Notes under the pieces: model-generated
Databases searched by the model: none
What the model was told of the DNA's origin: nothing
The model's input: the letters and a program-made list of their open reading frames with translations, nothing else
In this document: positions 8,979 to 54,913 of the stretch, in pieces
Layout: every line of letters starts with the position of its first letter
Numbering within the stretch: position 1 is the first letter of the stretch
Virus record (IMG/VR): IMGVR_UViG_3300025645_000038
Location: 64,001-128,000 of that record
Strand: one strand, 5' to 3'
Length of the DNA: 64,000 bases
From: a virus
Made by a program: the position numbers and the translations under genes

Positions 8979-9251
8979 ATGAGAAAACGACATTGGAAAA
9001 ATAGAAAGAATAGAAAATGTCCTACTTGTACTAGGATATTAACTTATTCTCGAAAAGATTCCTTTGATAGAGCAGTAGGTAACAACTCTGTCTGTAAGTC
9101 ATGTGCTCAAACAGATAGAAAAGTAACAATGGAGACATTGGAAAAGATGAAACAACCTAAGACTGTCGAACATAGAAAAAAGATTTCACGCTCTATGAAG
9201 ACGCGTTGGGAAAAACTGAGAGAGAAAGAGTATGGCTTTACTAGACAGTAA
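8979..9251 (+). CDS. Small Zn-finger + NUMOD3-like DNA-binding protein (probable start ATG 8979)
   Basis: CPTC...CKSC and KTVEHRKKISRSMK; no nuclease domain visible. Confidence 0.55.
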   Translation: MRKRHWKNRKNRKCPTCTRILTYSRKDSFDRAVGNNSVCKSCAQTDRKVTMETLEKMKQPKTVEHRKKISRSMKTRWEKLREKEYGFTRQ

Positions 9252-9951
9252 ACAATTAAATCCAAGACTTACAGGTTCGTTTACCCTTTCTGGTAGTTTA
9301 TCAACAGAAAAGAATACACGAATTATAAGCAATTTAACAGAAATTATAAAGGTTACAGTAGTTTCTGATAATGGAAATAAGTATGCTTTTGAAGGTGCTA
9401 CTGCTCCTAATATCACAGTAGCTGAGGGAAAGACTTATAGATTTGATACATCTGATAGTACAAATAGTACCCATCCTTTTAGATTTAGTACCACATTAAG
9501 TGGAAGTTGGGCTGGCGGTAGTGCTTACACAACAGGAGTAACAGTAAATGGAACACCAGGACAAGGAGATTCATACACAGAAATTTCAATCAATAAAGTC
9601 ACACCTAATCATCTTTATTACTATTGTACTGCTCATGCTAATATGGGGAACGATGGTAAGTTACTTAAAAACGATTTTACAAACTTACATCTCGTAAGTG
9701 GTTCATCAGTATCAACCGGTTCGTTTGGACACTTAGTAGTACAAGGAAATGTGACTGCTAGTGGTACTGTAAGAGCAGATGCTTTCGAATCTGTTCAAGG
9801 TGGAGACACGATAAGTTTTGGAGATAATTTAAGTGTTACTGGTCAGATAACTGCGAGTGGTAATATAGATACTACAAGTGGTAGGGTATTTGAACAAGGA
9901 ACATCAGTAATAGACCATGCTACGGCGATGGCTATTGTATTTGGAGGATAA
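9232..9951 (+). CDS. Virion structural protein with a cupredoxin-like domain
   Basis: YRFDTSD..N..HPFRFS and LYYYCTAHANMG; carries one VSGSSVSTGSFG repeat shared with the fibre genes. Confidence 0.6.
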   Translation: MALLDSKQLNPRLTGSFTLSGSLSTEKNTRIISNLTEIIKVTVVSDNGNKYAFEGATAPNITVAEGKTYRFDTSDSTNSTHPFRFSTTLSGSWAGGSAYTTGVTVNGTPGQGDSYTEISINKVTPNHLYYYCTAHANMGNDGKLLKNDFTNLHLVSGSSVSTGSFGHLVVQGNVTASGTVRADAFESVQGGDTISFGDNLSVTGQITASGNIDTTSGRVFEQGTSVIDHATAMAIVFGG

Positions 9952-9953
9952 TA

Positions 9954-10277
9954 ATGGCTAATACTTTTAAAAATGCTGGAGTTGCTGTTGGAAATAGTGC
10001 TACTACTATTTATACTGCACCTGGTAGTACAACAGGAGTTATTCATGCAGTTTACATTAGTAATGTAGATGGAACGAATGACGCAACAATAGATTTGTAT
10101 GTAACAGATACAAGTGCTGGTTCTGATTTTTACATTATGAAAACAGTAGATGTACCAGCAGATTCAACTTTGGTAATTGAGAAACCTATTAATTTAGAAG
10201 CTGGTGATGTACTAAAAGCTGTTGCTTCAGCGGCTGGTGATTTACAAGCTTTTGCGAGTGTATTGGAAATAACATAA
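9954..10277 (+). CDS. Small beta-rich virion protein
   Basis: MANTFKNAG...KPINLEAGDVLK type small structural protein next to fibre genes. Confidence 0.55.
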   Translation: MANTFKNAGVAVGNSATTIYTAPGSTTGVIHAVYISNVDGTNDATIDLYVTDTSAGSDFYIMKTVDVPADSTLVIEKPINLEAGDVLKAVASAAGDLQAFASVLEIT

Positions 10278-10278
10278 T

Positions 10279-13200
10279 ATGGCTAACCTAAAATATATAG
10301 GTAAAAATATACTAAACCACACCCTTGAAATCAAGAAGGGTGATGTAAGTGGTTCGTCTAGTTCTACTGGTTCATTTGGTAGAGGTGAAGTAACCACATT
10401 AGAAGCATCTTCATTTGGAAGTAGTGCTAGTACTTTAATTAGTGGTTCATTTACATCAACAAGCTCCTCATTAGCTAGTAGAATTACCACAGCGGAAACA
10501 GAATTAGGTAATACCTTAATCAGTTCATCTGCTCAGATAGCTTCTGATATTAGTGGTTCATTTACATCAACAAGTTCATCACTTGCTGGTAGACTAACTA
10601 CAGAAGAAGGAAATGTAGATACACTTCAAGCTAGAGATTTAATAGCAGGAGCTGGTTTAACTGGTGGTGGAACATTAGCCTCTGATAGAACTTTCAATGT
10701 AGTCGGCGGAACTGGTATTACAGCAAATGCAAATGATATACAAGTAGATTTTTCAGACTCAACTTTACAGACTACAATTAGTGGTTCATTGGGTACTAAT
10801 GCTACATTGATAAGAAGTCTTACAGCAGCTGGTATTAGTGGTTCATTTACACCAACGAGTTCATCACTTGCTAGTAGACTAACCACAGAAGAAGGAAACG
10901 TAGATACTCTTCAAGCTAGAGATTTAATAGCTGGTACAGGTTTAACAGGTGGTGGAACATTAGCTTCTGATAGAACTTTTAACGTAGTCGGTGGAACTGG
11001 TATTACAGCAAATGCAAATGATATAGAAATAGATTTTTCAGATTCCACTTTACAAACCACAATTAGTGGTTCAGTTACTTCGGTAAGTTCTTCATTAGCT
11101 GGTAGGATTACTACTGAAGAAGGAAACGTAGATACTTTACAAGCTAGAGATTTAATAGCAGGAGCTGGTTTAACTGGTGGTGGAACACTAGCCTCCGATA
11201 GAACTTTTAATGTTGGTGCTGGAACAGGTGTTACTGTAAATGCTAACGATGTAGCTATTGGACAGGCAGTTGCAACATCTGATAATGTTACATTTGGTAG
11301 TGTGACTACAACAGGAAACATAAGTGGTTCATCAACCTCAACTGGTTCGTTTGGTCAAGGTCATTTTGCTAATAGTTTAGGTATCGGCACTACATCGCCA
11401 AGTGCCTTAATTCATGGAACTGGTACAAACGGTACAACATTAAGATTAAAAAATACAAGTAGTGCGTTAAATTATATCCATCTTGAAAATAGTGCGAATA
11501 CTGGTAACTTCATACAAACAAATGCTGATAGTATAATGTTAAACGCTGATGCATTTGGTTCTGGTGGTGATGTTAGATTAATGACTGGTAATACTATAAG
11601 AGTAAGAGTAAACGAACATGGATTAGGTATAAATGCCACACCAGCAGATGATATAAGATTGAGAGTTAAATCATCCGATAACGATGATGGTATTCAATTA
11701 GATGACCAAAGTGGTAATTCATTATTTAAAGTATTCCAACAATCAGATGGTGTTGGAAGATTATTTGTAGGTGGTAGCTCATCGGGTACAGTTTTTACTG
11801 TAACAGGTGGTGGTGATGCTTCCTATGTAAAGACAGGAACATTTGGTGTTGGCGTTACAAGCCCAACAGCAGAGCTAGATGTAAGTGGTTCTCTTCAAGT
11901 ATCTGGTCATATAAGTGGTTCATCATCCTCAACTGGTTCGTTTGGTAGAGTTGAATCGGACACATTTAATGCAACAACATTTACAAGTACAGAAGTAACC
12001 TCTACAAATCTAACGGTTACAGGAACAATAACTGGTTCTTCTTTAAATGTAAGTGGTGATGGTATATTCGGTGGTAACATAAGAGCAGTAGGTGATGTAA
12101 TAGCAGAAAGATATATTGTATCATCTTCGGTTACACATCTTACACAATCTTTTAGTAGCGGTTCTACGATTTTTGGGGATAGTGCTGATGATACTCATCT
12201 ATTTATTGGTAGTAAGATAAGTGGTTCATCAAACTTAACAGGTTCGTTTGGTGCTGTATCAATAGGAAAAGGAACTGCTGATAATCAAAGAGCACTTACC
12301 ATTTCTGGTAATGTTCAGTTAGATAACAATAATGCAATTTACTTTAAAAGGTCAACAGGTACAGCAGATCCTCATATAATTTATAATAGTAATAATGACT
12401 TTAATATTTTCAATCCACTTGCTGGTGAGATAAAATTTGCTGTAGGTAGTGCTGAAATAGTTGTTGTAGATAGTAGTGGATTAACATTTAACGGAAGTAA
12501 GACAATCGGTTCTTCTGCTGGTGCTGGTGTAATAACTATTGCGGGTAATAGTGGTTTAAAACTAAAGTCAGGTGGTGGCGGTGGTTCTGGTCCTATAGAA
12601 CTTATACAAGGTAGTACAACCTATTGGTCAGTAGGTACAAGTGGTGCTTTGACTGGTAGTGCTGACTTGGTGATGAATGCTGGAAAAAACATAAGTGGTT
12701 CAGCAACCTCAACTGGTTCGTTTGGTGAAGTTCATACTGAGGGTGTAAAAGGATTAGCTGGGGATTACAGTAGTGTATTATTAGTACCAGATACTTTACA
12801 ATTTGGCAATGATGCGGATTCAATGTTTAGAAGAAGAACTTCAAACGATGTTGAGTTTAGAATGGCTGGTTCAGATATAGTTAGGATAAACACAAGTGGT
12901 TTACAGGTTGAGAATGGTAATTTAGAAGTTGAAAGTGGTAATGTAATAGCTAGTGGAAACATAAGTGGTTCATCAACCTCAACTGGTTCGTTTGGTAATC
13001 TTAGGGTTGGTGATAGAACTGCTCATGCTAATAGATTTACAGCGTATGGTGGAAATGAAGGATTTAAGGTAGGTTACGCTCAATCAGGTTTCTTAGCTAG
13101 TACAGGTGCTGCTTCAGATGGTGCTGATGCAGAAATAGTAATGACAGGAACTGGTGGTTCTGCTCCATTTAATAATCATGGTAGTATCGTATATAAGACA

Positions 13201-16200
13201 AGAGCAGTTGATACATTACAAAGAAGTTCACATATATTCTACACAGGTAGAACATCTGCTGAAAGAGTAAGGATTGACCACGATGGTAATTTGGGTATTG
13301 GCACAGCTGCTCCTTACTATAAAGCTCATATATCATTTGATAATTCTACTACATCATTTAGTGGTGGTAGTAGTGGAAATTGGGGTGGTAACGGACTGCG
13401 AATTGAAAATACTAATAGTACAACAGATACAAAGGCAACCTTACAATTAAGAGCAAATGATTATGATGCTCTAATATCTGCAGTTAAGAAATCAGGTGGT
13501 AATACAGGTGAAGTACATTTTAACGTAGATCCTGATGCAAATACAAATCAACTTCTCACATTAGCAGGTTCTAAAATAAGCGGTTCATCAACCTCAACTG
13601 GTTCGTTTGGTCATTTGGTAGTTGATGATGCTATTAAAGTAGCACACGGTGGTACAGGTACTACATCTTTAACATCTAATGCTATATTAACTGGTAATGG
13701 AACTTCACCTATACAGGCAGAATCAGACCTTACATTTTCTCCTGGAGGTTCATTATCAATTTCAACTACTCAAGATCCAATTTTAATATTAAATAGAACT
13801 AGTGGTGGAAGTTCCGCTATACATTTTAAAAATTCTGGAACTACAAAAGCTTACATTTATTCAGACACTAGTCAGAATTTGTATTTTGGAAATCCAACTA
13901 CGAATCCAGTATTAAAGCTTAATGCCGATGGTTCTTCTGTATTTGCTGGTAATGTAAGTGGTTCATCAACTTCAACAGGTTCGTTTGGTAGAGGGTTTAT
14001 TGCTGATGATTTATTTGTAGGTGATGGTACAACAACTGGTGGTATAATATCAGGATACAAAGCTGATGGTGCTTACTTATACCTACAGAATAGCACTACC
14101 GGTACGGGTCCTGCTAAAGGTATATCACTACAGGCTTATCAAGACGATGGTTATGTGGGTAACTATTCTAATACATCTGGTAAGTTCATAATCTTTGTAA
14201 ACAATGGTAACACTCATGCAATAACTATCAATGGTACAACAAGTCACAAACTTCTCACATTAGAAGATTCTAAAATAAGTGGTTCATCAACCTCAACAGG
14301 TTCGTTTGGTTCTTTAATAGTTGATGGTGTGATACAAGGTGCTACCGAAATAGGTGGTGATTTAACTATAACGGATGCTACACCAGCATTAACTTTTAAT
14401 GATACAAATGAACATCCATCAAGAATAAGTGGTAATGGTAGTCATGTAACTTTACAAGCTGATTATAATAATACTGGTGCTGGTTCAAGGATTGATTTTG
14501 AGATAGATGGTACTAATCAAGCTAGATTGTATGGTCCTACTGGTGACCTTACATTGTATAATGGTGGATTAGTAACTGCTGGTAACATAAGTGGTTCATC
14601 AACCTCAACAGGTTCGTTTGGTGATGTTCATATTGTTGATAAACTTCTTATCGGTACTAAAACAGCTGATACTGTATGGAATTTTGTACCTAGAGTACAA
14701 ATAGAGGGTACAAATGCTGCTTCATCAGCTTTTAATATAGTTCGTAACAGTAATGATGGTTCTCCACCATATATTATAATGACCAAAACAAGAGGTAGTG
14801 CAGCTGGTGGAGATACTCTTGTTCAAAATGGTGATATACTTGGTAGAATACTATTCGCTGGCGCTGATGGTACTGATAGAGCTCCGATAGGAGCAAGAAT
14901 AGCAGCTGGCGTAGATGGTACACCAGGTGAAAATGATTTACCAACTGAGCTAACATTTTGGACTACTGCGGATGGAGCACAACAGCCAACACAAAGAATG
15001 GTTATCAAAAGTTCAGGAAAAGTAGGCATCGGCGAAACATCTCCTGATTACTTTGTACATATTAAAGATAGTGCTCACACAAGATTACAACTAGAAGCAG
15101 GTAGTGTAAACCATCAAACTTATCTACAATTTGAAGCAGATAGACCAGCAGAAAACGATACAATAGGAAATATACAATTTAGGGTTGCTGGAAATGTTTC
15201 ATCAGCTATTATAGGATATAGAGGAAGTGGAGATAGCTCAGGTTATACGGTATTTACAAGTGGTGGTACGACTGAAAGAATGAGACTAGCTGAAAGTGGT
15301 GATATAGTATTTAGTGGAGCTAATCAAAAAATAAGTGGTTCATCAACCTCAACTGGTTCTTTTGGTGTTGGTTTCTTTGACGATAGTGTTGGTATGGGAG
15401 TTGCACCTGGTAACTCAAGTTATTTGTTGAATATAGAAGCAGCTCAAACTTACGCTGCAAGATTTAAATCAAGAAAGACAACTTCATCTACTTCTCAAAG
15501 AACGATGATACTGGTTGGAAGTGGACAAGACAAAGGAGCTGGTATCTTCTTTCAAGGTCCAGGTACAAATCTTTCAATAGGTGTAAAGGAAGATAATAAG
15601 TTTCATATTGCACCTGGTAGAAATGATATTGGTGATTCTAGTGCTTATTCTGTTACTGTAGATACAAGTGGTAACTTTGAGGTTACTGCTGGAAACATAA
15701 GTGGTTCAGCAACATCAACAGGTTCGTTTGGTAGGGTAGAAGTAAATTCAATATCAGCTAGTCTTTATCAAGGACAAATCGGTTCTCGTTATGTTCATTC
15801 ACAAACATCTGATTCTGCTACTTGGTCAATAAATCACAACATAGGACATAAGTATCCTGTAGTTACTGTATATGATACAAGTGACCAAATGATTTTACCT
15901 GAAACAGGAACTGCTACAGACTCAGATACATTTACCCTAACATTTAATGAAGCTATTCAAGGAAAAGCTGTAGTTTCTGTTGGTGGAATCGGTGAAAATG
16001 CTGGTGGTAACTATATATTTACACAAGATTCTTCTACTACAAATTGGAGAGTTACACATAGTTTAAGTCAACAATATCCAAATGTAACTGTGTATGATGG
16101 TAGTAATCAAGTAATTATACCTGAAAGTATTACAGCTGCTAGTTCTAACGAAATGGATATCACATTTTCAGATGCTCAGAGTGGATATGCTAACTTTTCA

Positions 16201-16554
16201 ATCGGTAGTGGAATACCGAACATAAGTGCAGAAAATGCTGGTAAGGTTCTAAAGGTAAGGTCAGGTGGACAAGGTGTGGAATGGTCACCAACATCAAACG
16301 ATGTATCAGGCTCAATGTCTGTTTCCGGTAGTATAACACCAACGATAGACAACTTTCATAACTTAGGTTCTGCTACACATAGATGGGCTAACCTACATAC
16401 TGGTGATATTCAACTATCCAACGAAGGTTCGGAAGGAAACGAAGTAGATGGAACAACAGGCTCTTGGACAATACAGGAAGGCGAGGATGACTTATACTTA
16501 TTGAATAGGAAGAATGGTAAAAAGTACAAATTTAAATTAGAGGAGATTACCTAA
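10279..16554 (+). CDS. Giant modular fibre protein 1 (2091 aa)
   Basis: Gly/Ser/Thr-rich; 12 ISGSSTSTGSFG-type linkers, GIGTTSP-type motifs, C-terminal WANLHTGD...GSWTIQEGEDDLYL fibre motif. Confidence 0.8.
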   Translation: MANLKYIGKNILNHTLEIKKGDVSGSSSSTGSFGRGEVTTLEASSFGSSASTLISGSFTSTSSSLASRITTAETELGNTLISSSAQIASDISGSFTSTSSSLAGRLTTEEGNVDTLQARDLIAGAGLTGGGTLASDRTFNVVGGTGITANANDIQVDFSDSTLQTTISGSLGTNATLIRSLTAAGISGSFTPTSSSLASRLTTEEGNVDTLQARDLIAGTGLTGGGTLASDRTFNVVGGTGITANANDIEIDFSDSTLQTTISGSVTSVSSSLAGRITTEEGNVDTLQARDLIAGAGLTGGGTLASDRTFNVGAGTGVTVNANDVAIGQAVATSDNVTFGSVTTTGNISGSSTSTGSFGQGHFANSLGIGTTSPSALIHGTGTNGTTLRLKNTSSALNYIHLENSANTGNFIQTNADSIMLNADAFGSGGDVRLMTGNTIRVRVNEHGLGINATPADDIRLRVKSSDNDDGIQLDDQSGNSLFKVFQQSDGVGRLFVGGSSSGTVFTVTGGGDASYVKTGTFGVGVTSPTAELDVSGSLQVSGHISGSSSSTGSFGRVESDTFNATTFTSTEVTSTNLTVTGTITGSSLNVSGDGIFGGNIRAVGDVIAERYIVSSSVTHLTQSFSSGSTIFGDSADDTHLFIGSKISGSSNLTGSFGAVSIGKGTADNQRALTISGNVQLDNNNAIYFKRSTGTADPHIIYNSNNDFNIFNPLAGEIKFAVGSAEIVVVDSSGLTFNGSKTIGSSAGAGVITIAGNSGLKLKSGGGGGSGPIELIQGSTTYWSVGTSGALTGSADLVMNAGKNISGSATSTGSFGEVHTEGVKGLAGDYSSVLLVPDTLQFGNDADSMFRRRTSNDVEFRMAGSDIVRINTSGLQVENGNLEVESGNVIASGNISGSSTSTGSFGNLRVGDRTAHANRFTAYGGNEGFKVGYAQSGFLASTGAASDGADAEIVMTGTGGSAPFNNHGSIVYKTRAVDTLQRSSHIFYTGRTSAERVRIDHDGNLGIGTAAPYYKAHISFDNSTTSFSGGSSGNWGGNGLRIENTNSTTDTKATLQLRANDYDALISAVKKSGGNTGEVHFNVDPDANTNQLLTLAGSKISGSSTSTGSFGHLVVDDAIKVAHGGTGTTSLTSNAILTGNGTSPIQAESDLTFSPGGSLSISTTQDPILILNRTSGGSSAIHFKNSGTTKAYIYSDTSQNLYFGNPTTNPVLKLNADGSSVFAGNVSGSSTSTGSFGRGFIADDLFVGDGTTTGGIISGYKADGAYLYLQNSTTGTGPAKGISLQAYQDDGYVGNYSNTSGKFIIFVNNGNTHAITINGTTSHKLLTLEDSKISGSSTSTGSFGSLIVDGVIQGATEIGGDLTITDATPALTFNDTNEHPSRISGNGSHVTLQADYNNTGAGSRIDFEIDGTNQARLYGPTGDLTLYNGGLVTAGNISGSSTSTGSFGDVHIVDKLLIGTKTADTVWNFVPRVQIEGTNAASSAFNIVRNSNDGSPPYIIMTKTRGSAAGGDTLVQNGDILGRILFAGADGTDRAPIGARIAAGVDGTPGENDLPTELTFWTTADGAQQPTQRMVIKSSGKVGIGETSPDYFVHIKDSAHTRLQLEAGSVNHQTYLQFEADRPAENDTIGNIQFRVAGNVSSAIIGYRGSGDSSGYTVFTSGGTTERMRLAESGDIVFSGANQKISGSSTSTGSFGVGFFDDSVGMGVAPGNSSYLLNIEAAQTYAARFKSRKTTSSTSQRTMILVGSGQDKGAGIFFQGPGTNLSIGVKEDNKFHIAPGRNDIGDSSAYSVTVDTSGNFEVTAGNISGSATSTGSFGRVEVNSISASLYQGQIGSRYVHSQTSDSATWSINHNIGHKYPVVTVYDTSDQMILPETGTATDSDTFTLTFNEAIQGKAVVSVGGIGENAGGNYIFTQDSSTTNWRVTHSLSQQYPNVTVYDGSNQVIIPESITAASSNEMDITFSDAQSGYANFSIGSGIPNISAENAGKVLKVRSGGQGVEWSPTSNDVSGSMSVSGSITPTIDNFHNLGSATHRWANLHTGDIQLSNEGSEGNEVDGTTGSWTIQEGEDDLYLLNRKNGKKYKFKLEEIT
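10549..11220 (+). repeat. Three tandem in-frame repeats of about 80-95 aa (TTEEGNVDTLQARDLIAGxGLTGGGTLASDRTFNV)
   Basis: Near-identical protein and DNA copies starting at about 10549, 10834 and 11062. Confidence 0.9.
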
Positions 16555-19500
16555 ATGGCTATTTTTAGTGGTGACATATTTGCCGAAAATTATACTGTAT
16601 CATCATCTGTAACCAACGTTCAGATATCATCTGTCTCTGGTTCTACAAAGTCTGGTGATACACCAGATGACACTCATCAGTTTACTGGTTCTTTATTCAT
16701 AAGTGCTAGTAGGATTTCATTTGACGATGGTAAACAAAATATTGCTGTTGGTAAATCAGCTCTTTATGGTATTACTTCAGGAGCTGGAAATACTGCTATC
16801 GGTTATGAGGCATTATTAACAGAAGACACAGGTGGTGGTAATACAGCAATAGGTTATCAAGCATTAAAACTTAATAATAAAGATAGTTCTACAGCAGGAA
16901 ATACTGTTATAGGTTATCAAGCAGCTACTGCTTTTACTAGTCACCAAAGAAATACTATTATTGGTTATCAAGCTGCTTTATCTGCAGATGGTGGAGAAAA
17001 TAATAATACTATAATTGGCTGGCAAGCTGGAATGAGTATGAATAGTAATGATGCAAGTAATAATGTTATCATTGGAAAAGAAGCGGGTACTGGAGGAACT
17101 GGTACATTAGCAAGTGCGGTAATTATAGGTGAAGGTGCTATGAACTCAACTGCAAATCAAGCATCTACTGGACAAGTAGCAGTTGGTAGGAGTGCTCTTA
17201 CTGCACTTACATCAGGAATTGGTAATACTGCTATTGGATACAAAGCAGGTCAAGGAATAACCTCCGATAGTAGAAACACAATCATTGGATATGAAGCAGT
17301 ATACTCCTCATCATTAAATGATGATATGGTTGTTGTTGGACACAAAGCTGGTTACAATCTAAAAGGTGATTCTGAACATGGTGGTGTACTTATTGGTTCT
17401 GAAGCTGGATATAATTTAACAGACGATGCTACTTATGCATTACGACCTAATATGTTCATTGGATATCAAGCAGGCTACAATTTCACAACAGCTAATCCAA
17501 GTATGGGTATCGGATATAAAGCTTTATGGGGAGAATATGTAGGTGCTAATGGTACTAGTCACTCTAATATTTATGGTAGTAATTTAGCTATCGGTGATTT
17601 TGCTGGATACGCTGGTGGTAATACAACAGGATTTGGTGGTAACACATATGCAGGACACTTTTCTGGTGAAGGTCATGTAGGTGGTGGATCTACACATATC
17701 GGTTACGAAGCTGGTAGATACACAGCTTCTGGTTCTCAAGATGTTTTTATTGGATACAATGCAGGAAAGATTACACACTTATCAGGTGATTCATCAAGCA
17801 CTCCTACTGCTAGATTAGGTCTTAACGTTGCTATTGGTTATAAAGCTCTGATGTCTGGTGGTACAACTAATGTTGCTATTGGTCATGAAGCATTGACACA
17901 TCAATCTGGAAGTTCTAAAAATACCGCTGTTGGATACGCTGCAATGGAAAACTCAGCTAGAAATATATCAGGTGTGACTGCAGTTGGTTACTCTGCTGGT
18001 AGTTCTGCAACGGGATTTTATTCTGTTTTAATTGGAGAGGCGGCAGGATATAACGCTAGTATAGCTACTGTTTCAATTGGTTACTATGCTGGATACAGAA
18101 CAGCAGCTTATACAACAGCTATTGGTTATGGTGCACTTTCAAGAGGAACAGGTACCAGAAATGTTGCAGTTGGTACAGACACTCTACGAGGATATCCATA
18201 CACACAAAACCAAGAAACAGGTAACAGTACAGGTACAAATAATACTGCTATTGGTTATAATGCAGGACTAGCTTACAATTCTGCTAGTTATAATACTCTT
18301 GTTGGTTATTCAGCTGGATACCGTATTGATAATGGTGAATATACTGTTCACATTGGTAACGAAGCTGGTAGATACGCAACCGGTTCTCGAAATACGTTTG
18401 TAGGAAATGAAGCTGGTAAAGGTGGACAAGCATCTGCTCCGTATAGTTCAGGTCAGGATAATGTTTCTGTTGGATATAGATCTCTTTATAGTTTCACAAC
18501 AGGTCAAAGTAATGTTGCGATTGGAAAATCAGCAGCTCAAAATCTTACCACTGGAGTTTATAATACCGCAGTCGGTAATGAAGCTTACTCTGGTACAACG
18601 GGTAATAACAATACAATAATAGGAAGGGCTGCTGGCGCTTCAATGACAACTGGTCAACAAATTACAGCAGTTGGGGCTACAACATTTAACTATCTCACAG
18701 TTGCTACAGATTCTACTGCAATAGGATTCGATGCGGGAGAATATGCTACAGGTTCCTACAACACATTCGTAGGTTCATCTGCAGGAAAAGGTGGAACAAC
18801 TTCTGCTCCATTTAGTTCAGGTCAGAATAATACTGCTCTTGGATATCAAGCTCTTACTGCTTTCACGACTGGTGGTTCAAATACTGCTATTGGATATCAA
18901 GCTGGATATCTAATCTCATCAGGATCTTATAATGTAACTATGGGATATCAAGCTGGTTACAGTTTGGGTGGAACTTTTAATAATGTAATGATTGGTAATT
19001 ATGCGGGAGCACTTAGCAACACAATAAATAATAGGAATGTATATGTCGGTGATTCAGCAGGTAGATATCTCGATACAGGTATTGCAAATGTTGCTATCGG
19101 TTATGAAGCTATGGAGTCAGCTGGTTCTGGTAATGACGCCTCATATAACACCGCTATAGGATATCATGCATTGGAATCAATCACAGATGCTGATTACAAT
19201 ACCGCTATAGGACAAGCCGCAGGTCAAAATATTGAGGGTGGTAGTGGTCAGAACGTATTTATTGGAAACAGTGCTGGTATAACTTCAGTTACCAGTGCAT
19301 TCAATATAATGATTGGAGTAAGTGCAGGTCTTGCTGCTACGGATGTGGATAAAACAGTTCTGATAGGATGGAACGCTGGAAGAAACACAACCGCAGACGG
19401 AACAATCGCTATCGGATACCAAGCTTTGCTCGAACACACGACTGGTGTAAGAAATATTGCTATTGGTAGAGATGCAATGAAAGGCACAAACGCTGGTTCT

Positions 19501-22500
19501 AATTCTTTAGGTTCAAGTGATAATATATTTATCGGTGACCAAGCTGGTGGTGGAACTTGGACAGATGCGGCTTCAAATGGTAACGTTGGTATTGGTACTT
19601 ATGTTATGGATGCATCTACAGATGGAGCATTATACAATACAGCAGTAGGTGCTTACGCTGCAAGTGCTATAACCCAAGCTGATAATGTCGTAGCTATCGG
19701 AAATAGTGCGGCTTATAGTTTAACAACTGCTTCAAATAATATCGCCATAGGATTTTCAGCTATGAAAGTTCACACAACCGGTGGTGATAATATTGCTATT
19801 GGTGCTAATGCGATGGATGATACTGATGCTGGTTCAACCTCTCTTGGTTCAACAAATAATATTTTTATGGGTTACAATGCTGGTGGTGGAACTTGGGCTG
19901 ATGCGGCTTCTAGCTATAATGTGGGTATTGGTAATTATGTTATGGATGGAGCTTTAAATGGAGCTACATATAATACCGCTCTTGGTCATCAAGCTCTTAC
20001 TTCTATAACAACTGGTGATTATAACGTTGGACTTGGATATCTAGCATTAGGTAATTCTACAACTGCTGGTACAAATGTAGCAGTCGGTGGATATGCGGGA
20101 GCATCAATAACAACTGGTGGAAATAATGTTTCTATTGGATACACATCCCTAAATACCGTTACAGTTGGAACAGATAATATAGCTATTGGAAAAGACTCTG
20201 GTAGATACACAACTGGTTCATACAACACATTCGTAGGCTCAGAAGCAGGAAAAGGTGGAACAACCTCTGCTCCGTTTAGTTCAGGTGAACAAAATACTTC
20301 TGTTGGATATCAAGCTCTCAAAGCTTTTACTACTGGAGGTCAAAATATTGCGATTGGGCACCAAGCTTCTATGGGTGTATCTACAGGAGCTAAAAACGTA
20401 GTTATTGGAAGGTCATCCTTTTCATCAGCTACAACAACTTCAAATGTTGTATTGATTGGAGATGAAGCTGGTAAAGCAATAAACTCAACAGACGCAAACG
20501 GAACAGTTGCTATTGGATATAATGCAGGTGCATCAATTACTGAAGGTCAATATAACACTATCATCGGCCACGGTGCAGGTGATGCTATGTCAACAAGTGA
20601 CCAAAATACTATCATTGGTTATAACGCTGGTACATCTATTGTAACTGATGGAGCTAGAGGTTCAACTCTAATAGGTATGCAAGCTGGAGAAGATTTAACA
20701 TCAGGTGGTTATAATACAGCTATGGGTAGAGGAGCTTTGAGAACTATGACTACTGGACAAGGTAATATTGCAATCGGTGACCAAGCTATGCAATATGTTC
20801 CAGCTAGTGCAGCAATTAATTATGTGATGGGAATTGGATATGCTGCTTTAAACGATGCTCCTAATTTGAGTACAGCGGCAAATGAAAGTATGGCTATCGG
20901 TTTTGCTGCGGGAACAAACGCTAGTAACTTAGCTGCAGAATTTGTATTAATTGGTTCATACGCAGGTCAAAAATATAATGGTGTGGGTGGTACTATCATT
21001 GGTTTCAATGCTGGACAATATGCAAGTGGTTCTTACAACACATTCGTAGGAAAAGAAGCAGGTAAAGGTGGAACAACATCTGCTCCATTTAGTACAGGTA
21101 CTTATAATACTGCTGTTGGATATGCCGCTCTTGATGCTTTCACAACTGGTGGTTCAAACACAGTTGTCGGAAATTATGCTGGTAGTGGTATAACAACTGG
21201 TGGTAGTAATGTTTTTATAGGTGGTCAGGCTGGTTTAAGTATAACCGACCATTCTCGAAATGTCACAATAGGTGATGGTGCAGGTAGAGCTGGAGCAGGA
21301 AATTATGCTAATAATGTAATAGTTGGATATGGTACGGCTGATAGAACAACTGGTGATTATCAGGTTATTATAGGTTCTCAGGCTATGGGTGGAACTTCTG
21401 TTACCGGAGAGAATAATACCGTAATGGGATTTCAAGCTCACGGAATTTCAACAGGACCCGGTGCTGCAGCAAATAATGTAACGATTGGATTTCAAGCACA
21501 ATACCATTCTTCTGGTAGTAATAATGTTGCTATTGGATATAAAGCTGGATTTGATAATCAAGCCACTGGTCAAACTTTTGTTGGATATCAAGCTGGTACA
21601 AATGTTACTTCAGGAGTACAGAATACTGCTATTGGATATAATGCACTTTATGTAGCAACAACTGGAGGTTATAATACAGTTATTGGTTACAACGCCGGTG
21701 ATGCTATCACGACTGCAAATTACAGTACGCTTGTCGGTGCCTCTGCTGGTAGTTCGATAACCACACAACAATACAATACATTGGTTGGTTCTTATTGTGG
21801 TTATGGATTAGATGCTGGAGATGGTCAGAATACGGCTGTTGGTAGAGAAGCATTGTACTATGGTGATGGTAGTGCTTCCAATGTTGCTATCGGTCAGTTA
21901 GCTCTGTACGGAGCATCCGGTACTAACAATGCTACCGCTAATGTTGCATTAGGAAATTCAGCTCTTCAAAATACTTCTACAGGTGACTACAATGTTGCTA
22001 TAGGATTTAAGGCCGGTGAGAAAAATAATAATAGTCAAAACATTTTTATCGGAAACCTTGCATCAGGTTCTGGTGCTGACCAAGAAATCGTAATAGGTTC
22101 TGGTACAAGCACATATCAGAATCCATTAATCGGTGGTGGTACTGAAACAATCAGAATAGGTAGAGCATCAGACTTTATCACAAATGATTTCGGTGAGAAT
22201 GCTACTTGGACACATTCCTCAGATAGAAGAATTAAAAAAGATATAAAAGATACCAACTTAGGATTAGAATTTATACTTAAACTACAACCAAAAGAATTTA
22301 AGAAAAAGGCACCAAGTGAGTATCCTAAAGAATTTGAACAACATAATTCAGATACTACGGAAAGAAAGAATCCAGATAGAATACATTATGGTTTCGTTGC
22401 TCAAGAAGTTAAAGAGGCAATGGATGAAGTAGGACACTCAGAGTTTCCTGTATGGAAAGAAAATAGAGATGGAATGCAAGAACTTGGTGAAACAGAATTA

Positions 22501-25600: not shown

Positions 25601-28600
25601 GTTCTCAAGCTGGAAAAGGTGGAACAACATCTGCTCCATATAGTTCAGGTCAGAATAATGTTGCTATGGGATACGAAGCTCTTAAATCTTTCACAACCGC
25701 ACAAAGAATGGTAGCAATCGGATACGAAGCTATGACGGATGTTAAAGATGGTCAAGATAGTGTTGCCATAGGATATCAAGCAGCCTACTACAACTCAAGT
25801 AGTTATAGTGTATCCATAGGTAAGGGTGCTGGAATGGTAATGGGTGGTGGTTATAATGTTTCCGTAGGATTTGGAGCTGGTGGTTCAGCATCCGATTCAA
25901 ATGTTGCTATCGGACAAAGAGCAATGGGATTACAGCCAGCTGCTAATGAGAATGTTGCTGTTGGTAGTGTCGCTGGTTCTAATTTAATTGGAGGTTTTAC
26001 AGCAATAGTTGGTGCTCAAGCTGGTAGACATGCAACTGGTTCTTATAACACATTTATGGGATATAAGGCTGGTTATGGTTCAATAACATCTGCTCCGTTT
26101 AGTTCAGGTGAAAATAATACTGCACTTGGATACAATGCTCTTAAAGCTTTCACGACTGCTGCTTCAAATACAGTAATCGGATATTCTGCTGGTAGTAGTA
26201 TAACAACCGGTGGTGCTAACATACTTATCGGCTCCCAAGCTGGTATGAACATAACAACAACCACGAGTAACGTAGTGATAGGTAATAATGCAGGTCAACA
26301 TCTTGGTGGTTCAAATGCTGATAATCATGCTAATAGAAACGTAATCATCGGTCACTCCGCTGCAAAAGGAAGTAGTCCATCTATAGCAAAAGGTCACTAT
26401 AGTGTTGTAATAGGTGACCAAGCTCAATATCATTTTAAAAGTGGTAGTCAAAATGTTTATATGGGATATCAGTCTAGTTACTACAATCAAAATGGAAACT
26501 ATAATGTTACCATTGGAAGTGGTGCTGGATCCAATGCAACTGGTTCTAGTAATACTTTTGTTGGATATAGGTCTGGTAAAGGTGGAAACTCATCTGCTCC
26601 ATATAGTTCAGGTGGAAATAATACTGCTTTTGGATATGAAACTCTTACTGCTTTCACGACTGGTGAGTCTAATGTAGCCGTTGGTAGAGAAGCAGGTCAT
26701 GACATCACTACAGGTACTGGCAACACTTTAGTCGGTAATGCTGCAGGTGATAAAATAACAACAGCTGAGTATAATACTGCTATTGGAGCTGGTGCACTTG
26801 GTTCACAAGCAGCAGATGCGGATGGAAACATCGCTATTGGTGATTTTGCTATGGGTGCTGTCAATAATGCAGCTTCTATAGAAAATGTAGTAGTCGGTGG
26901 ATATGCAGGAAGTGGTGGTACTGGTCAACTTATACGAACCGTTGCTATAGGTAAAAATGCTCTTAATTCTACAGGTACTGCAAATCTGACTGGTACAGTA
27001 GCAATAGGATACAACGCAGGAACGGCTATAAATCATGCTGCTGCTCTATCCTCAACTTTAGTTGGATATTTATGTGGTGATTCTATAACATCAGGAGCTG
27101 GTAACTCAGCTTTTGGTTACGAAGCATTAACTGCCCAATCTGTAAATGGTTGGAACGCTGCCTTTGGTAATTATTCTGCTCACGCACATACAGGAGCATA
27201 TAGTACTTTTCTAGGTACTAAAGCTGGTGAAAATTTAACTTCGGGTAATAATGCTATTCATATTGGATTCAACACAGCTGCTTCAGCCGTAGATGTTGAT
27301 AGTGAGTATGTAATTGGAGCTGGAACTTCATTCTCAGACGGATTGACTGGTGGTGGAACTGAAACAATAAGAATAGGTGTTTCTACGGATTACATAACAA
27401 ATGATTTTGGTGAGAATGCTACTTGGACACATTCATCAGATAGACGAGTTAAGAAAAACATTGAAGATAACGATTTAGGATTAGGGTTTATAGAAAAACT
27501 AAGAACACGAAAGTTTCAAAAGAAAGCACCTAGTGAATATCCTGAAGAGTTTGAACAACATAATTCAGATACTACGGAAAGAAAGAATCCAGATAGAATA
27601 CATTATGGTTTCGTTGCTCAAGAAGTTAAAGAAGCTATGGATTCAGTAGGACACTCAGAGTTTCCTGTTTGGAAGGAAAACAGAGATGGAATGCAAGAAC
27701 TTGGTGAAACAGAATTAATTACACCTCTTGTAAAAGCAGTTCAAGAACTTTCTTTAGAAAATAAAGAATTAAAAGACGAACTTAATGAGTTGAAGATACT
27801 TATTAAAAAGAAATTAGGAGACGAATAGGTGAAAATTGATAGCCCAACCTTTTTAAGTGAAACTACTTTTATAAGTGCTTCAGTTCAATTCTCAAGTGGT
27901 TCACAAAAATTTGGTAATACTACAGATGACCAACACCAGTTTACTGGCTCTCTTAAAATTGGTGGTACTTCATTTTTCAGAGATATTGGTTCTGCCCACC
28001 AAGTATACATAGATTCAGATACTGGTGGTGTAGCACAGATAGGAACTAACACATATACACCATTAAGTATACGAGCTAACGGAAACCAAGCTATATACAT
28101 CAGTCAAGGCGCTGTGGTTTCAATGGGTACTACAAACGTAGGTAATCTAACATCTACTGGTACTATAGTAAGCACTGGAGCTAATGCTTTAATAAGTGGT
28201 TCATCTACTTCAACTGGTTCTTTTGGTATGATTACAACACCAAGTGATATTGGTGGTAAACCAGCTGCAAGATTACATAAATTTGCATTCCTTAGAGCTT
28301 CAGATTCTGGAGATACTAGTACAAGTGGATATAATAGTAAATCAGGTAACACAATATTTGGATATGATGCCGCTTCTCAAATAGTTCAGAATAATGGAGC
28401 TGGACATTCCAATACCTACATCGGACATTATGCCGGGCATGGTAACGCGAGTGGAGATCATAATACTGCTATTGGGCATGTAGCAGGTCTTGGTGGAAGT
28501 GGTGATAATAATACTTCTGTAGGATCTTATGCTGGGTATAATATAACCTCTGGTGGAAATTTAGTTTTAATAGGTAGGAGCGCTGGTGTAAGCATTACCG

Positions 28601-53815: not shown

Positions 53816-54913
53816 ATGTCAGTTAAAGACGATTTAGCTGGGGTTCTTGCCGACTCTCTAAATAAGAAGTTCAAAGATTATAAGGTTGCTTACTTCTTGG
53901 ATGGAGTTCAAGAAACACCAACAGATATCAAAGAGTTCATTTCAACAGGTTCAACAATGTTAGACTTAGCAATTTCAAATCGCCCTAATGGTGGTATTGC
54001 AGTTGGTAGGATTACAGAACTGAATGGATTGGAAAGTAGTGGTAAATCATTAGTAGGTGCTCACCTACTTTCAGAGACTCAAAAGAAAGGTGGTGTCGCT
54101 GTTTATATAGATACAGAGACTGCCGTAAGTGAAGAATTTTTAGGTGTTATAGGTGTTGATATAAATAATATGTTGTATCTACATTTAGAAACAGTAGAAG
54201 ATATCTTTGAAGCTATTGAAGAAATCGTAACCAAAGTTCGTGAGTCTGATAAGGATAGGTTAGTAACCATCTTAGTAGATTCATTAGCTGCTGCTACAAC
54301 TAAGGTTGAGTTAAATGCAGACTTTGATAAGGATGGTTGGGCTACTTCAAAAGCTATCGTAATATCTAAAGCTATGAGAAAGATTACTCAGATGATTGGA
54401 AGACAAAGAGTAGCTTTGGTATTCACAAATCAGTTAAGGGTAAAGTTAGGTGCTATGTTTGGAGATCCTTATACCACATCAGGTGGTAAGGCTCTTCCTT
54501 TTCATGCATCAACTCGTATTCGTTTAAAGAATAAAGGTCAAATAAAGGATACTAAAAAGAATGTAATCGGTATGACTATTCTGGCACAAGTGATTAAGAA
54601 TCGTTTGGGTCCTCCACTTAGAAAAGCAGAGTTTCCTCTGTACTTTGAAAGTGGTGTAGATGATGAGGGTAGTTGGTTACAAGTTCTTAAAGACCACAAC
54701 TTAGTCAAAGTTGGTGGTGCTTGGTATACTATGAAAGACCACAATGATGAAGAGATTAAGTTTCAATCTAAGGATTGGGCTGAAAAGTTAGAAGATGAAG
54801 ATTTCAAAGACTATTGTTACAAGTTGATTTGTGATAAAGTCATACTGAAATACACTAAAGCTGATTTAGGTATCGATGATGTAGAGATTACAGAAGAGGT
54901 GTTGGGTGACTAA
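53816..54913 (+). CDS. uvsX: RecA/UvsX recombinase
   Basis: ISTGSTMLD, GRITELNGLESSGKS, YIDTE, VDS, FTNQLR and TSGGKALPFHAS. Confidence 0.93.
   Translation: MSVKDDLAGVLADSLNKKFKDYKVAYFLDGVQETPTDIKEFISTGSTMLDLAISNRPNGGIAVGRITELNGLESSGKSLVGAHLLSETQKKGGVAVYIDTETAVSEEFLGVIGVDINNMLYLHLETVEDIFEAIEEIVTKVRESDKDRLVTILVDSLAAATTKVELNADFDKDGWATSKAIVISKAMRKITQMIGRQRVALVFTNQLRVKLGAMFGDPYTTSGGKALPFHASTRIRLKNKGQIKDTKKNVIGMTILAQVIKNRLGPPLRKAEFPLYFESGVDDEGSWLQVLKDHNLVKVGGAWYTMKDHNDEEIKFQSKDWAEKLEDEDFKDYCYKLICDKVILKYTKADLGIDDVEITEEVLGD

What the first reader, a model, noticed from the sequence alone, without database searches (positions are those of the whole stretch)
10279..16554. Fibre 1 is a chain of dissimilar modules punctuated by a DNA-conserved 36-bp repeat
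Seen: 12 copies of ATAAGTGGTTCATCAACCTCAACTGGTTCGTTTGGT (ISGSSTSTGSFG) separate dissimilar modules of about 80-310 aa. Two more copies lie in neighbouring genes (9694, 28192). Synonymous sites are largely conserved, including a TCG Ser codon in most copies of an AT-rich gene, and 11314-11355 equals 12955-12996 over 42 bp. Inference: the repeats act as in-frame crossover points for gain, loss and exchange of receptor-binding modules. No dedicated recombinase is in the window, so the phage UvsX could drive it.
Basis: partly seen in the sequence, partly recalled or inferred. Interest (0 to 1): 0.75.

Follow-up and report, generated by a model that had tools for sequence, protein, structure and literature searches.

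The report
Recombining DNA linker in phage fibre
A giant tail-fibre gene of an uncultured marine T4-like phage is built from protein cassettes joined by one 36-base linker that is kept almost letter for letter, and comparison with related phages shows that cassettes have been swapped, gained, lost and moved between fibre genes exactly at this linker.

Summary
Gene F1 (10279-16554, 2091 aa) holds 12 in-frame copies of a 36-nt block encoding (I/V)SGS(S/A)xSTGSFG. Two more copies lie at 9694 and 28192, and there are none elsewhere in the 165-kb record.

Codon choice is position-specific and far from codon bias. Ser10 is TCG in 10/12 copies against 3% background. Thr6 is ACC in 7/9 against 7%. DNA identity stops at the block edges.

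The main inference is supported. Against the closest syntenic relative, all six high-identity DNA matches inside F1 have their inner ends within 6 nt of a linker border. Two F1 cassettes sit in fibre gene 4 of that relative, and five have no counterpart there. Other relatives show linker-bounded insertion, duplication and a 98.8%-identical two-cassette transfer.

The same DNA linker occurs in at least 119 IMG/VR stretches. Copies differ as much within as between genomes, which fits one shared pool.

The "receptor-binding" label is not shown. Cassette M10 is a trimeric beta-helix stalk unit, five others resemble it remotely, and the fibre tip is conserved.

This is a new, very regular variant of conserved-motif recombination known from T-even fibres. 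The scan noted the same 36-nt repeat in another genome (e1-3862045) and the same principle with other linkers.

The parts
10279..16554 (+). Fibre gene F1 (2091 aa): a 22-aa N-terminal piece, 12 linkers, and cassettes M1-M12
   Evidence: ORF. The start MANLKYIGKN is conserved in relatives. The C-terminal 97 aa match the fibre gp28 of cyanophage P-SCSP1u, PDB 8i4m_e, E 1e-18.
10345..10380 (+). Linker 1 (VSGSSSSTGSFG), 7 mismatches to consensus
   Evidence: DNA homology to relative G001 (window 9999-10379, 91%) ends at this linker. It is the site where G000 F1 is fused relative to the two-gene layout of G001 and G003.
11320..11355 (+). Linker 2, exact consensus
11911..11946 (+). Linker 3
12217..12252 (+). 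Linker 4
   Evidence: The match to G001 (12072-12252, 92%) ends exactly at its last base.
12691..12726 (+). Linker 5
   Evidence: Left border of the M5 cassette match.
12727..12960 (+). Cassette M5 (78 aa), found in fibre gene 4 of relative G001 and in three other contigs with different neighbours
   Evidence: Window 12686-13002 matches G001 22773-23089 at 85% nt. It belongs to cluster C3, with 5 members.
12961..12996 (+). Linker 6, exact consensus
12997..13575 (+). Cassette M6 (193 aa), kept in F1 of relative G001
   Evidence: Window 12957-13609 matches G001 4879-5531 at 87% nt, with both ends at linkers.
13576..13611 (+). Linker 7
13954..13989 (+). Linker 8
14275..14310 (+). Linker 9
14587..14622 (+). 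Linker 10
   Evidence: Left breakpoint of the 97.6%-identical segment shared with Tara contig L133.
14623..15330 (+). Cassette M10 (236 aa): a trimeric beta-helix stalk unit plus a second part. Its first 415 nt (14623-15037) occur almost unchanged in another context.
   Evidence: 26,284 representative homologues. PDB profile hits to 8ond, 8oml and 8ol4. Foldseek hits to 8oml and 8onf at E 2e-5 and to T5 pb1 4uw7. L133 comparison.
15331..15366 (+). Linker 11
15367..15696 (+). Cassette M11 (110 aa), found in fibre gene 4 of relative G001
   Evidence: Window 15328-15732 matches G001 22103-22507 at 93.8% nt, with ends 3 and 0 nt from linker borders. The backbone is only 84% identical.
15697..15732 (+). 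Linker 12
   Evidence: The conserved 3' block (15697-16715) starts at its first base.
15733..16551 (+). C-terminal module M12 (273 aa), the fibre tip, conserved among relatives
   Evidence: 91% aa identity to G001 and 79% to G003. PDB 8i4m_e match.
9694..9729 (+). Linker copy in the 239-aa fibre-like gene 9232-9951
   Evidence: Matches tail-fibre PHROG families.
28192..28227 (+). Single linker copy near the start of fibre gene F4 (27829-33972). The same position in relative G001 carries five linkers and four extra cassettes.
53816..54913 (+). UvsX-like RecA-family recombinase, the likely engine. The link is inferred, not shown.
   Evidence: PF00154 E 7e-57. phrog_97 UvsX-like recombinase E 8e-67.

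Best explanation
F1 is a trimeric tail-fibre protein built as a string of separately folding cassettes. Most are stalk-type beta-helix or prism units.

Between cassettes sits a 12-residue Ser/Gly/Thr connector. Its 36-nt coding sequence is held nearly constant across a whole clade of uncultured marine T4-like phages of about 165 kb.

Every copy is in the same codon phase. It is also the only stretch of DNA homology between otherwise unrelated cassettes. General homologous recombination therefore crosses over inside it and yields in-frame chimeras. The likely engines are the phage's UvsX-type recombinase during co-infection or between paralogous fibre genes, or template switching at replication.

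The outcome is cassette replacement, insertion, deletion, duplication, transfer between the four fibre genes, and even gene fusion.

Shown here: the DNA conservation beyond codon bias, the mosaic distribution of cassettes, and the coincidence of homology breakpoints with the linker.

Inferred: the enzyme, and what keeps the linker constant. The most likely cause of constancy is a self-reinforcing process. Cassettes flanked by consensus linkers recombine and spread most, and each crossover re-homogenises the linker. Selection for fibre variability may add to this. At the protein level the linker probably serves as a generic neck or hinge that tolerates any neighbour.
For: Copies and codons.
- 14 copies, sharply bounded.
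- Position-specific codons against bias in G000.
- The same in 156 copies from 17 contigs: TCG 123/156, AGT 143/156, TCA 146 and 149/156.
- The same in 106 copies from loci found by protein homology only: TCG 67/106.
- Codon identity at identical residues is 0.75-0.83 between non-orthologous linkers. It is 0.59-0.66 between orthologous sheath genes.

Breakpoints.
- G000 against G001: all six high-identity matches in F1 have their inner ends within 6 nt of a linker border.
- All pairs: 87/178 match ends lie within 10 nt of a linker, against 8.3% of random positions.

Cassette movements.
- M5 and M11 are in fibre gene 4 of G001. M4 and M7-M10 are absent from G001.
- L032 against L033: 99.1% identical flanks with one exactly linker-bounded cassette extra in gene 2, whose homologue is in gene 1 of the other phage.
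- L031 against L033: a 770-nt two-cassette block at 98.8%, bounded by linkers, in genomes otherwise 80-92% alike.
- A linker-bounded duplication within one gene of G003.
- L133 shares 456 nt at 97.6% that start at the linker.

Pool and engine.
- Linker distances within genomes equal those between genomes.
- A UvsX-like gene is present. No RT, resolvase or integrase is found.
- Stalk-unit fold of M10.
Against: - No experiment or read-level data shows recombination happening now. All events are inferred from assembled metagenomic contigs, where chimeric assembly across a shared 36-mer is conceivable. The same junctions and cassettes do recur in independent samples, and long contigs are collinear.
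- About half of the high-identity match ends are not at a linker. Many of these lie in the differently built F2-F4-type repeats, and some lie inside cassettes or at the GKVGIG junction.
- 36 bp is near the lower limit for efficient homologous recombination (from memory of T4 and E. coli work, not tested here).
- The match-end statistics count non-independent pairs.
- Loci L001-L019 were collected by an exact 33-mer, which biases pooled codon counts. The homology-collected set shows the same pattern, only weaker.
Confidence: 0.8

Rival explanations
1. The linker is purely a structural connector. Its DNA constancy is a passive by-product of repeated gene conversion, with no role in generating useful fibre diversity. 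The cassette mosaics are neutral debris of recombination in a recombination-prone phage.
For: The same consensus is found within and between genomes, which fits homogenisation. The fibre tip M12 is conserved while the stalk cassettes vary. M10 and probably others are stalk units rather than obvious binding domains.
Against: This rival still needs recombination at the linker, so it differs only on adaptive value. Cassette turnover between close relatives is extreme: 5 of 13 modules have no counterpart at 84% backbone identity. Some cassettes are more similar than the backbone (93.8-98.8%), which suggests recent spread and not drift alone.
Confidence: 0.3
2. The synonymous-site conservation serves translation or RNA. 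In this reading the rare TCG and ACC codons pause ribosomes at domain borders to aid folding of the trimer, or the block forms an RNA structure.
For: Two rare codons (TCG at 3%, ACC at 7% background) sit at fixed positions at every domain border.
Against: Four Ser positions each keep a different common codon (AGT or TCA and not TCT), which pausing does not explain. Folding of four copies with flanks gives z-scores of +0.9, +1.1, -0.2 and -0.5, so no stable structure. This reading does not explain breakpoints at the linker.
Confidence: 0.07
3. A dedicated enzyme recognises the 36-nt block and drives programmed cassette exchange. Candidates are a site-specific recombinase, a nuclease that starts gene conversion, or a retroelement.
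For: The sequence is unusually constant in at least 119 viral stretches. All copies are direct and in phase.
Against: No reverse transcriptase, serine recombinase or tyrosine recombinase is found in the 165-kb record, which is 79% complete. Neighbouring genes are structural. There are no inverted copies. There is no silent cassette archive, since no copies lie outside the fibre genes. Breakpoints also occur at other conserved junctions, as expected for plain homology-driven exchange.
Confidence: 0.06
4. The linker copies are alike only because the cassettes were duplicated recently, or because amino-acid constraint plus codon bias suffices.
For: The peptide is strongly conserved. GGT, TTT and ATA are the preferred codons anyway.
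Against: The cassettes between copies have no detectable BLAST similarity. DNA identity ends at the block edges. TCG, ACC and the position-specific Ser codons are incompatible with bias (p down to 1e-14).
Confidence: 0.02

Closest known systems
Conserved-motif recombination in T-even long-tail-fibre and adhesin genes: gp37 'His boxes' and gp38 glycine-rich motifs (GRMs) separating hypervariable segments. Sources: Tetart et al. 1998 J Mol Biol 282:543, as cited in Trojet et al. 2011, PMC3157838.
   Same: Short conserved motifs separate variable segments of a fibre or adhesin gene. [quoted passage not shown] The phage is T4-like, with general recombination as the engine.
   Different: In gp38 the number and order of GRMs are fixed, the variable parts are short loops of a single domain, and deleting any one is lethal (PMC3157838). 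Here the units are whole domains of 43-491 aa. Their number (1-16 linkers per gene) and order vary, and they move between paralogous genes. One 36-nt sequence is reused up to 37 times per genome and is conserved at synonymous sites across the clade. F1 has no Pfam or PHROG match to gp37 or gp38 families.
Mosaic adhesive trimer (MAT) fibres of Bdellovibrio bacteriovorus and the phage T5 L-shaped tail fibre pb1 (Caulton et al. 2024, PMC10769870; PDB 8ond, 8oml, 8ol4, 4uw7)
   Same: M10 matches their trimeric beta-helix stalk domains by profile (E 3e-14 to 1e-11) and by fold (E 2e-5). Both are long mosaic fibres made of stacked units. The neighbouring genes F2-F4 end in the same S74 chaperone domain.
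   Different: F1 has no S74 chaperone. MAT fibres vary at the tip and keep the stalk (PMC10769870). F1 keeps the tip and varies the stalk. No DNA-conserved linker came up in term searches of that paper (the paper was not read in full).
Cassette systems of antigenic variation that use short conserved flanking repeats for gene conversion, such as Borrelia vlsE with 17-bp direct repeats and Neisseria pilE/pilS (from general knowledge, not checked here)
   Same: It works like them in one respect: short DNA-conserved repeats flank variable in-frame cassettes and provide the homology for exchange.
   Different: There is no silent cassette archive in the genome and no evidence of a programmed high-rate switch. 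The donors are other phages or paralogous expressed genes.
Site-specific tail-fibre switches: the shufflon (Rci), Mu Gin and P1 Cin invertible segments, and diversity-generating retroelements
   Same: They also diversify phage or pilus tip proteins in frame.
   Different: Those need inverted repeats plus a recombinase, or a reverse transcriptase with template and variable repeats. Here all copies are direct, and no such enzyme is found.

Membership tests
T-even gp37/gp38 conserved-motif recombination system | Short conserved motifs alternate with variable segments in a tail-fibre or adhesin gene | tested here: met
   12 linkers alternate with 13 unrelated segments.
T-even gp37/gp38 conserved-motif recombination system | Natural chimeras have their exchange points at or near the motifs | tested here: met
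T-even gp37/gp38 conserved-motif recombination system | Sequence homology to gp37 or gp38 (His boxes, GRMs) | tested here: not met
   Pfam gave only a sub-threshold GBD_IRG7_N match, and PHROGs gave no gp37 or gp38 family. The motif STGSFG is absent from the paper library.
T-even gp37/gp38 conserved-motif recombination system | Fixed number and order of motifs within one domain | tested here: not met
   1 to 16 linkers per gene. Order and gene location of cassettes vary.
MAT / T5 pb1-type trimeric beta-helix fibre | Stalk units with the beta-helix or prism fold of 8ond, 8oml and 4uw7 | tested here: met
   Met for M10: profile E 3e-14 and Foldseek E 2e-5, probability 1.00. The model is of moderate quality, pLDDT 66 overall and 70-90 in the core. 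M2, M4, M6, M7 and M11 match only weakly.
MAT / T5 pb1-type trimeric beta-helix fibre | C-terminal S74 intramolecular chaperone (S74 subfamily) | tested here: not met
   Absent from F1 and present in F2-F4. The F1 tip instead resembles cyanophage P-SCSP1u fibre gp28.
MAT / T5 pb1-type trimeric beta-helix fibre | Trimeric assembly | not testable with these tools
   Only a monomer model could be made.
Site-specific shufflon or invertible fibre segment | Inverted repeats plus an Rci, Gin or Cin-type recombinase | tested here: not met
   All copies are on the + strand. No PF00239 or PF00589 match in the record.
Diversity-generating retroelement | Reverse transcriptase with a template and variable repeat pair | tested here: not met
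   No PF00078 match. The variation is by whole cassettes and not by adenine-directed substitutions.

The most novel reading that the evidence does not exclude
The 36-nt linker is a clade-wide, evolved 'exchange standard': a DNA sequence maintained because it makes fibre cassettes interchangeable between genes and between co-infecting phages. It may be recognised by a dedicated nicking or pairing factor. Under this reading these marine T4-like phages run a natural plug-and-play system for rebuilding their fibres at rates far above ordinary recombination.
Probability: 0.12. Interest if true: 0.9.

Novelty: new variant of a known kind. Interest (0 to 1): 0.66.

Why it matters
The idea that conserved motifs guide recombination in tail-fibre genes rests mostly on a few T-even coliphages. 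Here the principle appears in an extreme and very clean form.

- One 36-nt in-frame linker is conserved at synonymous sites against codon bias.
- It is reused up to 37 times per genome and occurs in at least 119 viral contig stretches from many marine samples.
- Breakpoints are resolved to the nucleotide, and cassettes hop between paralogous fibre genes.

This makes an old question directly testable: is such DNA conservation selected for evolvability, or does recombination itself maintain it? The linker can be recoded synonymously and recombination measured.

The finding also gives a natural rule for where trimeric fibre domains can be joined, which is of practical use for building chimeric fibres in laboratory phages.

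Finally, these abundant uncultured ocean phages vary the stalk of the fibre and not its tip. That is the reverse of the usual picture and needs explaining.

Tried and rejected
- RNA structure. Four linker copies with flanks fold no better than shuffles, so this was rejected.
- Genome-specific concerted evolution. Within-genome and between-genome linker distances are equal. Homogenisation, if any, acts on a shared pool.
- DGR or site-specific recombinase. No RT, resolvase or integrase is found in the record.
- Cultured relatives. blastn of F1 and of a 4-kb backbone piece against 50,697 GenBank phage records found nothing.
- Population variants. An exact 26-mer from cassette M10 found nothing in JGI metagenome contigs.
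- Literature. The peptide STGSFG occurs in no paper of the library.
- Structure of the linker. In the monomer AlphaFold model both linkers have pLDDT below 50, so nothing can be said about their conformation. A trimer could not be modelled.
- Protein-level breakpoint test. The enrichment was only about 3-fold, because alignments run through the conserved linker and through repetitive F2-F4-type sequence. The DNA-level test is the cleaner one.
- Phage type. I checked whether mid-size contigs carrying the linker could be small phages of another type. All five tested are fragments estimated 20-28% complete, consistent with large genomes.
Full report
**What is in the window**

The window is the structural-gene region of a 164,845-bp uncultured virus record (window = bases 64001-128000). 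It carries a major head protein, a tail sheath and four giant fibre genes:
- F1: 10279-16554
- F2: 16555-22611
- F3: 22612-27828
- F4: 27829-33972

G+C content is 33-40%. I did not test that beyond finding the sheath, head and UvsX-like genes. Neither F1 nor a backbone segment has a nucleotide match among 50,697 GenBank phage records.

**Check of the observation**

The 36-mer has 12 matches at up to 3 mismatches, with none expected by chance. A protein-level scan finds 12 copies in F1 plus one in gene 9232-9951 and one in F4. There are no others anywhere in the record.

The peptide is (I/V)SGS(S/A)xSTGSFG. The pieces between copies are 22, 313, 185, 90, 146, 78, 193, 114, 95, 92, 236, 110 and 273 aa. 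They show no significant similarity to each other by BLAST. DNA identity is confined to the 36 nt and collapses on both sides (alignment A1).

**Codon test**

Background codon usage was taken from F1 outside the linkers.
- Ser at position 10 is TCG in 10/12 copies, against 3% background (p 1e-14).
- Thr at position 6 is ACC in 7/9, against 7% (p 2e-7).
- The other Ser positions are fixed as AGT, TCA, TCA and TCA, although AGT, TCA and TCT are about equally common in the gene.

Amino-acid constraint plus codon bias therefore does not explain the identity.

**Relatives**

The exact 33-mer occurs in 19 stretches of IMG/VR. It also occurs in three contigs of marine MAGs. Three longer relatives carry 18, 18 and 37 copies.

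In 156 protein-defined copies from 17 contigs the same position-specific codons dominate: AGT 143, TCA 146, TCA 149 and TCG 123. In 106 copies from loci that were collected by protein homology to the fibre tip, and not by the DNA motif, the pattern holds: TCG 67/106 and AGT 94/106.

Codon identity at identical residues is 0.75-0.83 between non-orthologous linker copies of different phages. It is only 0.59-0.66 between their orthologous sheath genes. Linker copies differ as much within a genome as between genomes. There is thus one consensus for the whole clade and no genome-specific homogenisation.

**Module order and breakpoints**

I split all linker-bearing ORFs of 17 contigs at the linkers. 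I then clustered the pieces at 80% or more mutual coverage. The same clusters recur full length in different orders, numbers and genes.

The closest relative, G001, is syntenic and its sheath region is 84% identical at the DNA level. Compared with it:
- M0, M6 and M12 stay in F1.
- M5 and M11 lie in fibre gene 4.
- M4, M7, M8, M9 and M10 have no counterpart anywhere in the 42.8-kb contig.

At the DNA level, all six high-identity matches inside F1 have their inner ends within 6 nt of a linker border. The M11 cassette match (93.8%) runs from 3 nt before one linker to the last base of the next.

Over all contig pairs, 87 of 178 ends of matches (85% identity or more, 150 nt or more) fall within 10 nt of a linker, against 8.3% of random positions. 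The pairs are not independent, so the p-value is only indicative.

Individual events are very clean.
- L032 and L033 are 99.1% identical up to the last base of a linker. L033 then carries one extra cassette, whose homologue sits in the neighbouring gene of L032.
- L031 and L033 share a 770-nt block of two cassettes and three linkers at 98.8%, in genomes otherwise 80-92% alike.
- G003 has a linker-to-linker duplication within one gene.
- A Tara Oceans contig (L133) shares 456 nt at 97.6% with window 14582-15037. The shared stretch starts at the linker and ends at a second conserved junction encoding G-K-V-G-I-G.

So module order is not fixed, and the breakpoints sit at the repeat. The linker is the main exchange point but not the only one.

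**A fusion at the first linker**

In G001 and G003 the 22-aa N-terminus, a linker and a roughly 400-aa domain form a separate gene. The cassette-array gene follows with its own N-terminus. G000 lacks both that domain and that N-terminus. Its homology to G001 stops at linker 1. F1 of this phage is therefore a fusion made at the linker. Contig L001 has the fused form with one more cassette.

**What the cassettes are**

M10 with its linkers has 26,284 representative homologues, typically several units per long protein. No Pfam family covers them.

A profile of M10 relatives hits the trimeric fibres of Bdellovibrio (8ond, 8oml, 8ol4; E 3e-14 to 1e-11). The AlphaFold model has mean pLDDT 66, a core at 70-90 and linkers below 50. 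It matches those fibres at E 2e-5, and also matches the T5 L-shaped fibre and T4 gp34. In the Bdellovibrio structures these regions are beta-helix stalk domains (PMC10769870).

The same profile hits M6, M2, M4, M7 and M11 at E 6e-10 to 9e-4. Several 'dissimilar' modules are thus probably variants of one stackable stalk unit.

The tip M12 is the conserved part. Its last 97 aa match the fibre of cyanophage P-SCSP1u (8i4m_e, E 1e-18). 'Receptor-binding modules' is therefore not established. The varying parts are mostly stalk. They could carry lateral binding sites or set length and flexibility, but that is open.

**Mechanism**

All copies are direct and in phase. The linker is the only homology between unlike cassettes. 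A UvsX-like recombinase is encoded at 53816-54913. No reverse transcriptase, resolvase or integrase is found. The linker RNA has no stable fold.

The simplest reading is general homologous recombination, or template switching, within a 36-nt homology patch placed at domain borders, so that the products are in frame and foldable.

What keeps the synonymous sites constant is inferred. Crossovers re-homogenise the linker, and cassettes with consensus linkers spread more. This maintains a clade-wide consensus whether or not variability is itself selected.

**Comparison with known systems**

The nearest known system is recombination at conserved motifs in T-even gp37 and gp38 (Tetart et al. 1998, as cited in PMC3157838). 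The present case works the same way but is not a member of that family.
- There is no sequence relation.
- The units are whole domains and not loops.
- The number and order of units vary.
- Cassettes move between genes.
- One DNA sequence is reused up to 37 times per genome.

The peptide motif is absent from the searchable literature.

This scan has noted the same 36-nt repeat in another genome (e1-3862045). It has also noted the same principle with other linkers in other phages. I used those notes only as context.

**Verdict**

The recombination reading is supported by comparative evidence. The receptor-binding label is not supported. This is a new variant of a known kind, of good interest, because it is unusually regular, widespread and experimentally tractable.

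Noticed in passing
window 10279-11319, compared with G001 275-1573 and 1583 onward (loci L020, L028): In relatives G001 and G003 the first roughly 435 aa form a separate gene: a 22-aa N-terminus, a linker and a roughly 400-aa globular domain. The cassette array is a second gene with its own N-terminus (MGVKVTGQFEPAGDF...). G000 has neither that domain nor that N-terminus. F1 here is a gene fusion whose breakpoint is linker 1.
   Followed up: partly
window 12072-12216 (C-terminal part of cassette M3): About 50 aa (SSSVT..QSFSSGSTIFGDS.DDTH.F.GS) are homologous to the conserved N-terminal regions of fibre genes F2, F3 and F4 and of many relatives' fibre genes. An N-terminal attachment-type segment thus sits in the middle of F1, which suggests an older end-to-end gene fusion.
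   Followed up: partly
window 15020-15037 (inside M10) and locus L133: A second conserved junction, encoding G-K-V-G-I-G (the widespread 'GxVGIGTxxP' inter-unit motif of this fibre family), is the right-hand breakpoint of a 97.6%-identical segment shared with a Tara Oceans contig. The ISGS linker is therefore not the only crossover point.
   Followed up: partly
window 10438-11254 (cassette M1): Three tandem repeats of about 86 aa at 77-84% nt identity, each opening with a linker-like ISGSFTSTSSSLA and containing AG.GLTGGG.L..DRTF.V. This is a different repeat system inside the first cassette.
   Followed up: no
loci L134, L135, L136 (genome contigs): The DNA linker occurs in contigs binned as Candidatus Pelagibacter sp. 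TMED166 (71.9-kb contig, 5 copies in an open-ended ORF of at least 1381 aa), Pelagibacter MED605 and bacterium TMED198. These are probably phage contigs mis-binned with SAR11.
   Followed up: partly
loci L035 (4356), L061 (1625), L083 (2340): A second linker 'allele', VSGSA(V/T)STASFG, has its own recurrent codons (…GCATCATTCGGT) in more distant contigs. Linker families may define separate exchange groups.
   Followed up: no
window 13550-13630 and 14249-14329: Two junctions share 81 nt at 89%, that is the linker plus about 22 nt on each side (LLTL..SK-linker-.L.VD). Junctions fall into at least two types (…GN-ISGS…-xVH/RVE and …SK-ISGS…-xLxVD), perhaps matching structural classes of neighbouring cassettes.
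   Followed up: no
window 27829-28227, compared with G001 21953-23400: F4 has one linker after a 121-aa N-terminal part. The orthologue in G001 has five linkers and four extra cassettes at that point, before the same YadA-like repeat body of 1700-1900 aa.
   Followed up: partly
window 15733-16551 (M12): The conserved tip contains two tandem segments of about 70 aa (residues about 1831-1899 and 1909-1981 of F1). They hit PHROG families of unknown function and, below threshold, a galactose-binding-like Pfam domain (GBD_IRG7_N). These are candidates for the real receptor-binding part.
   Followed up: no
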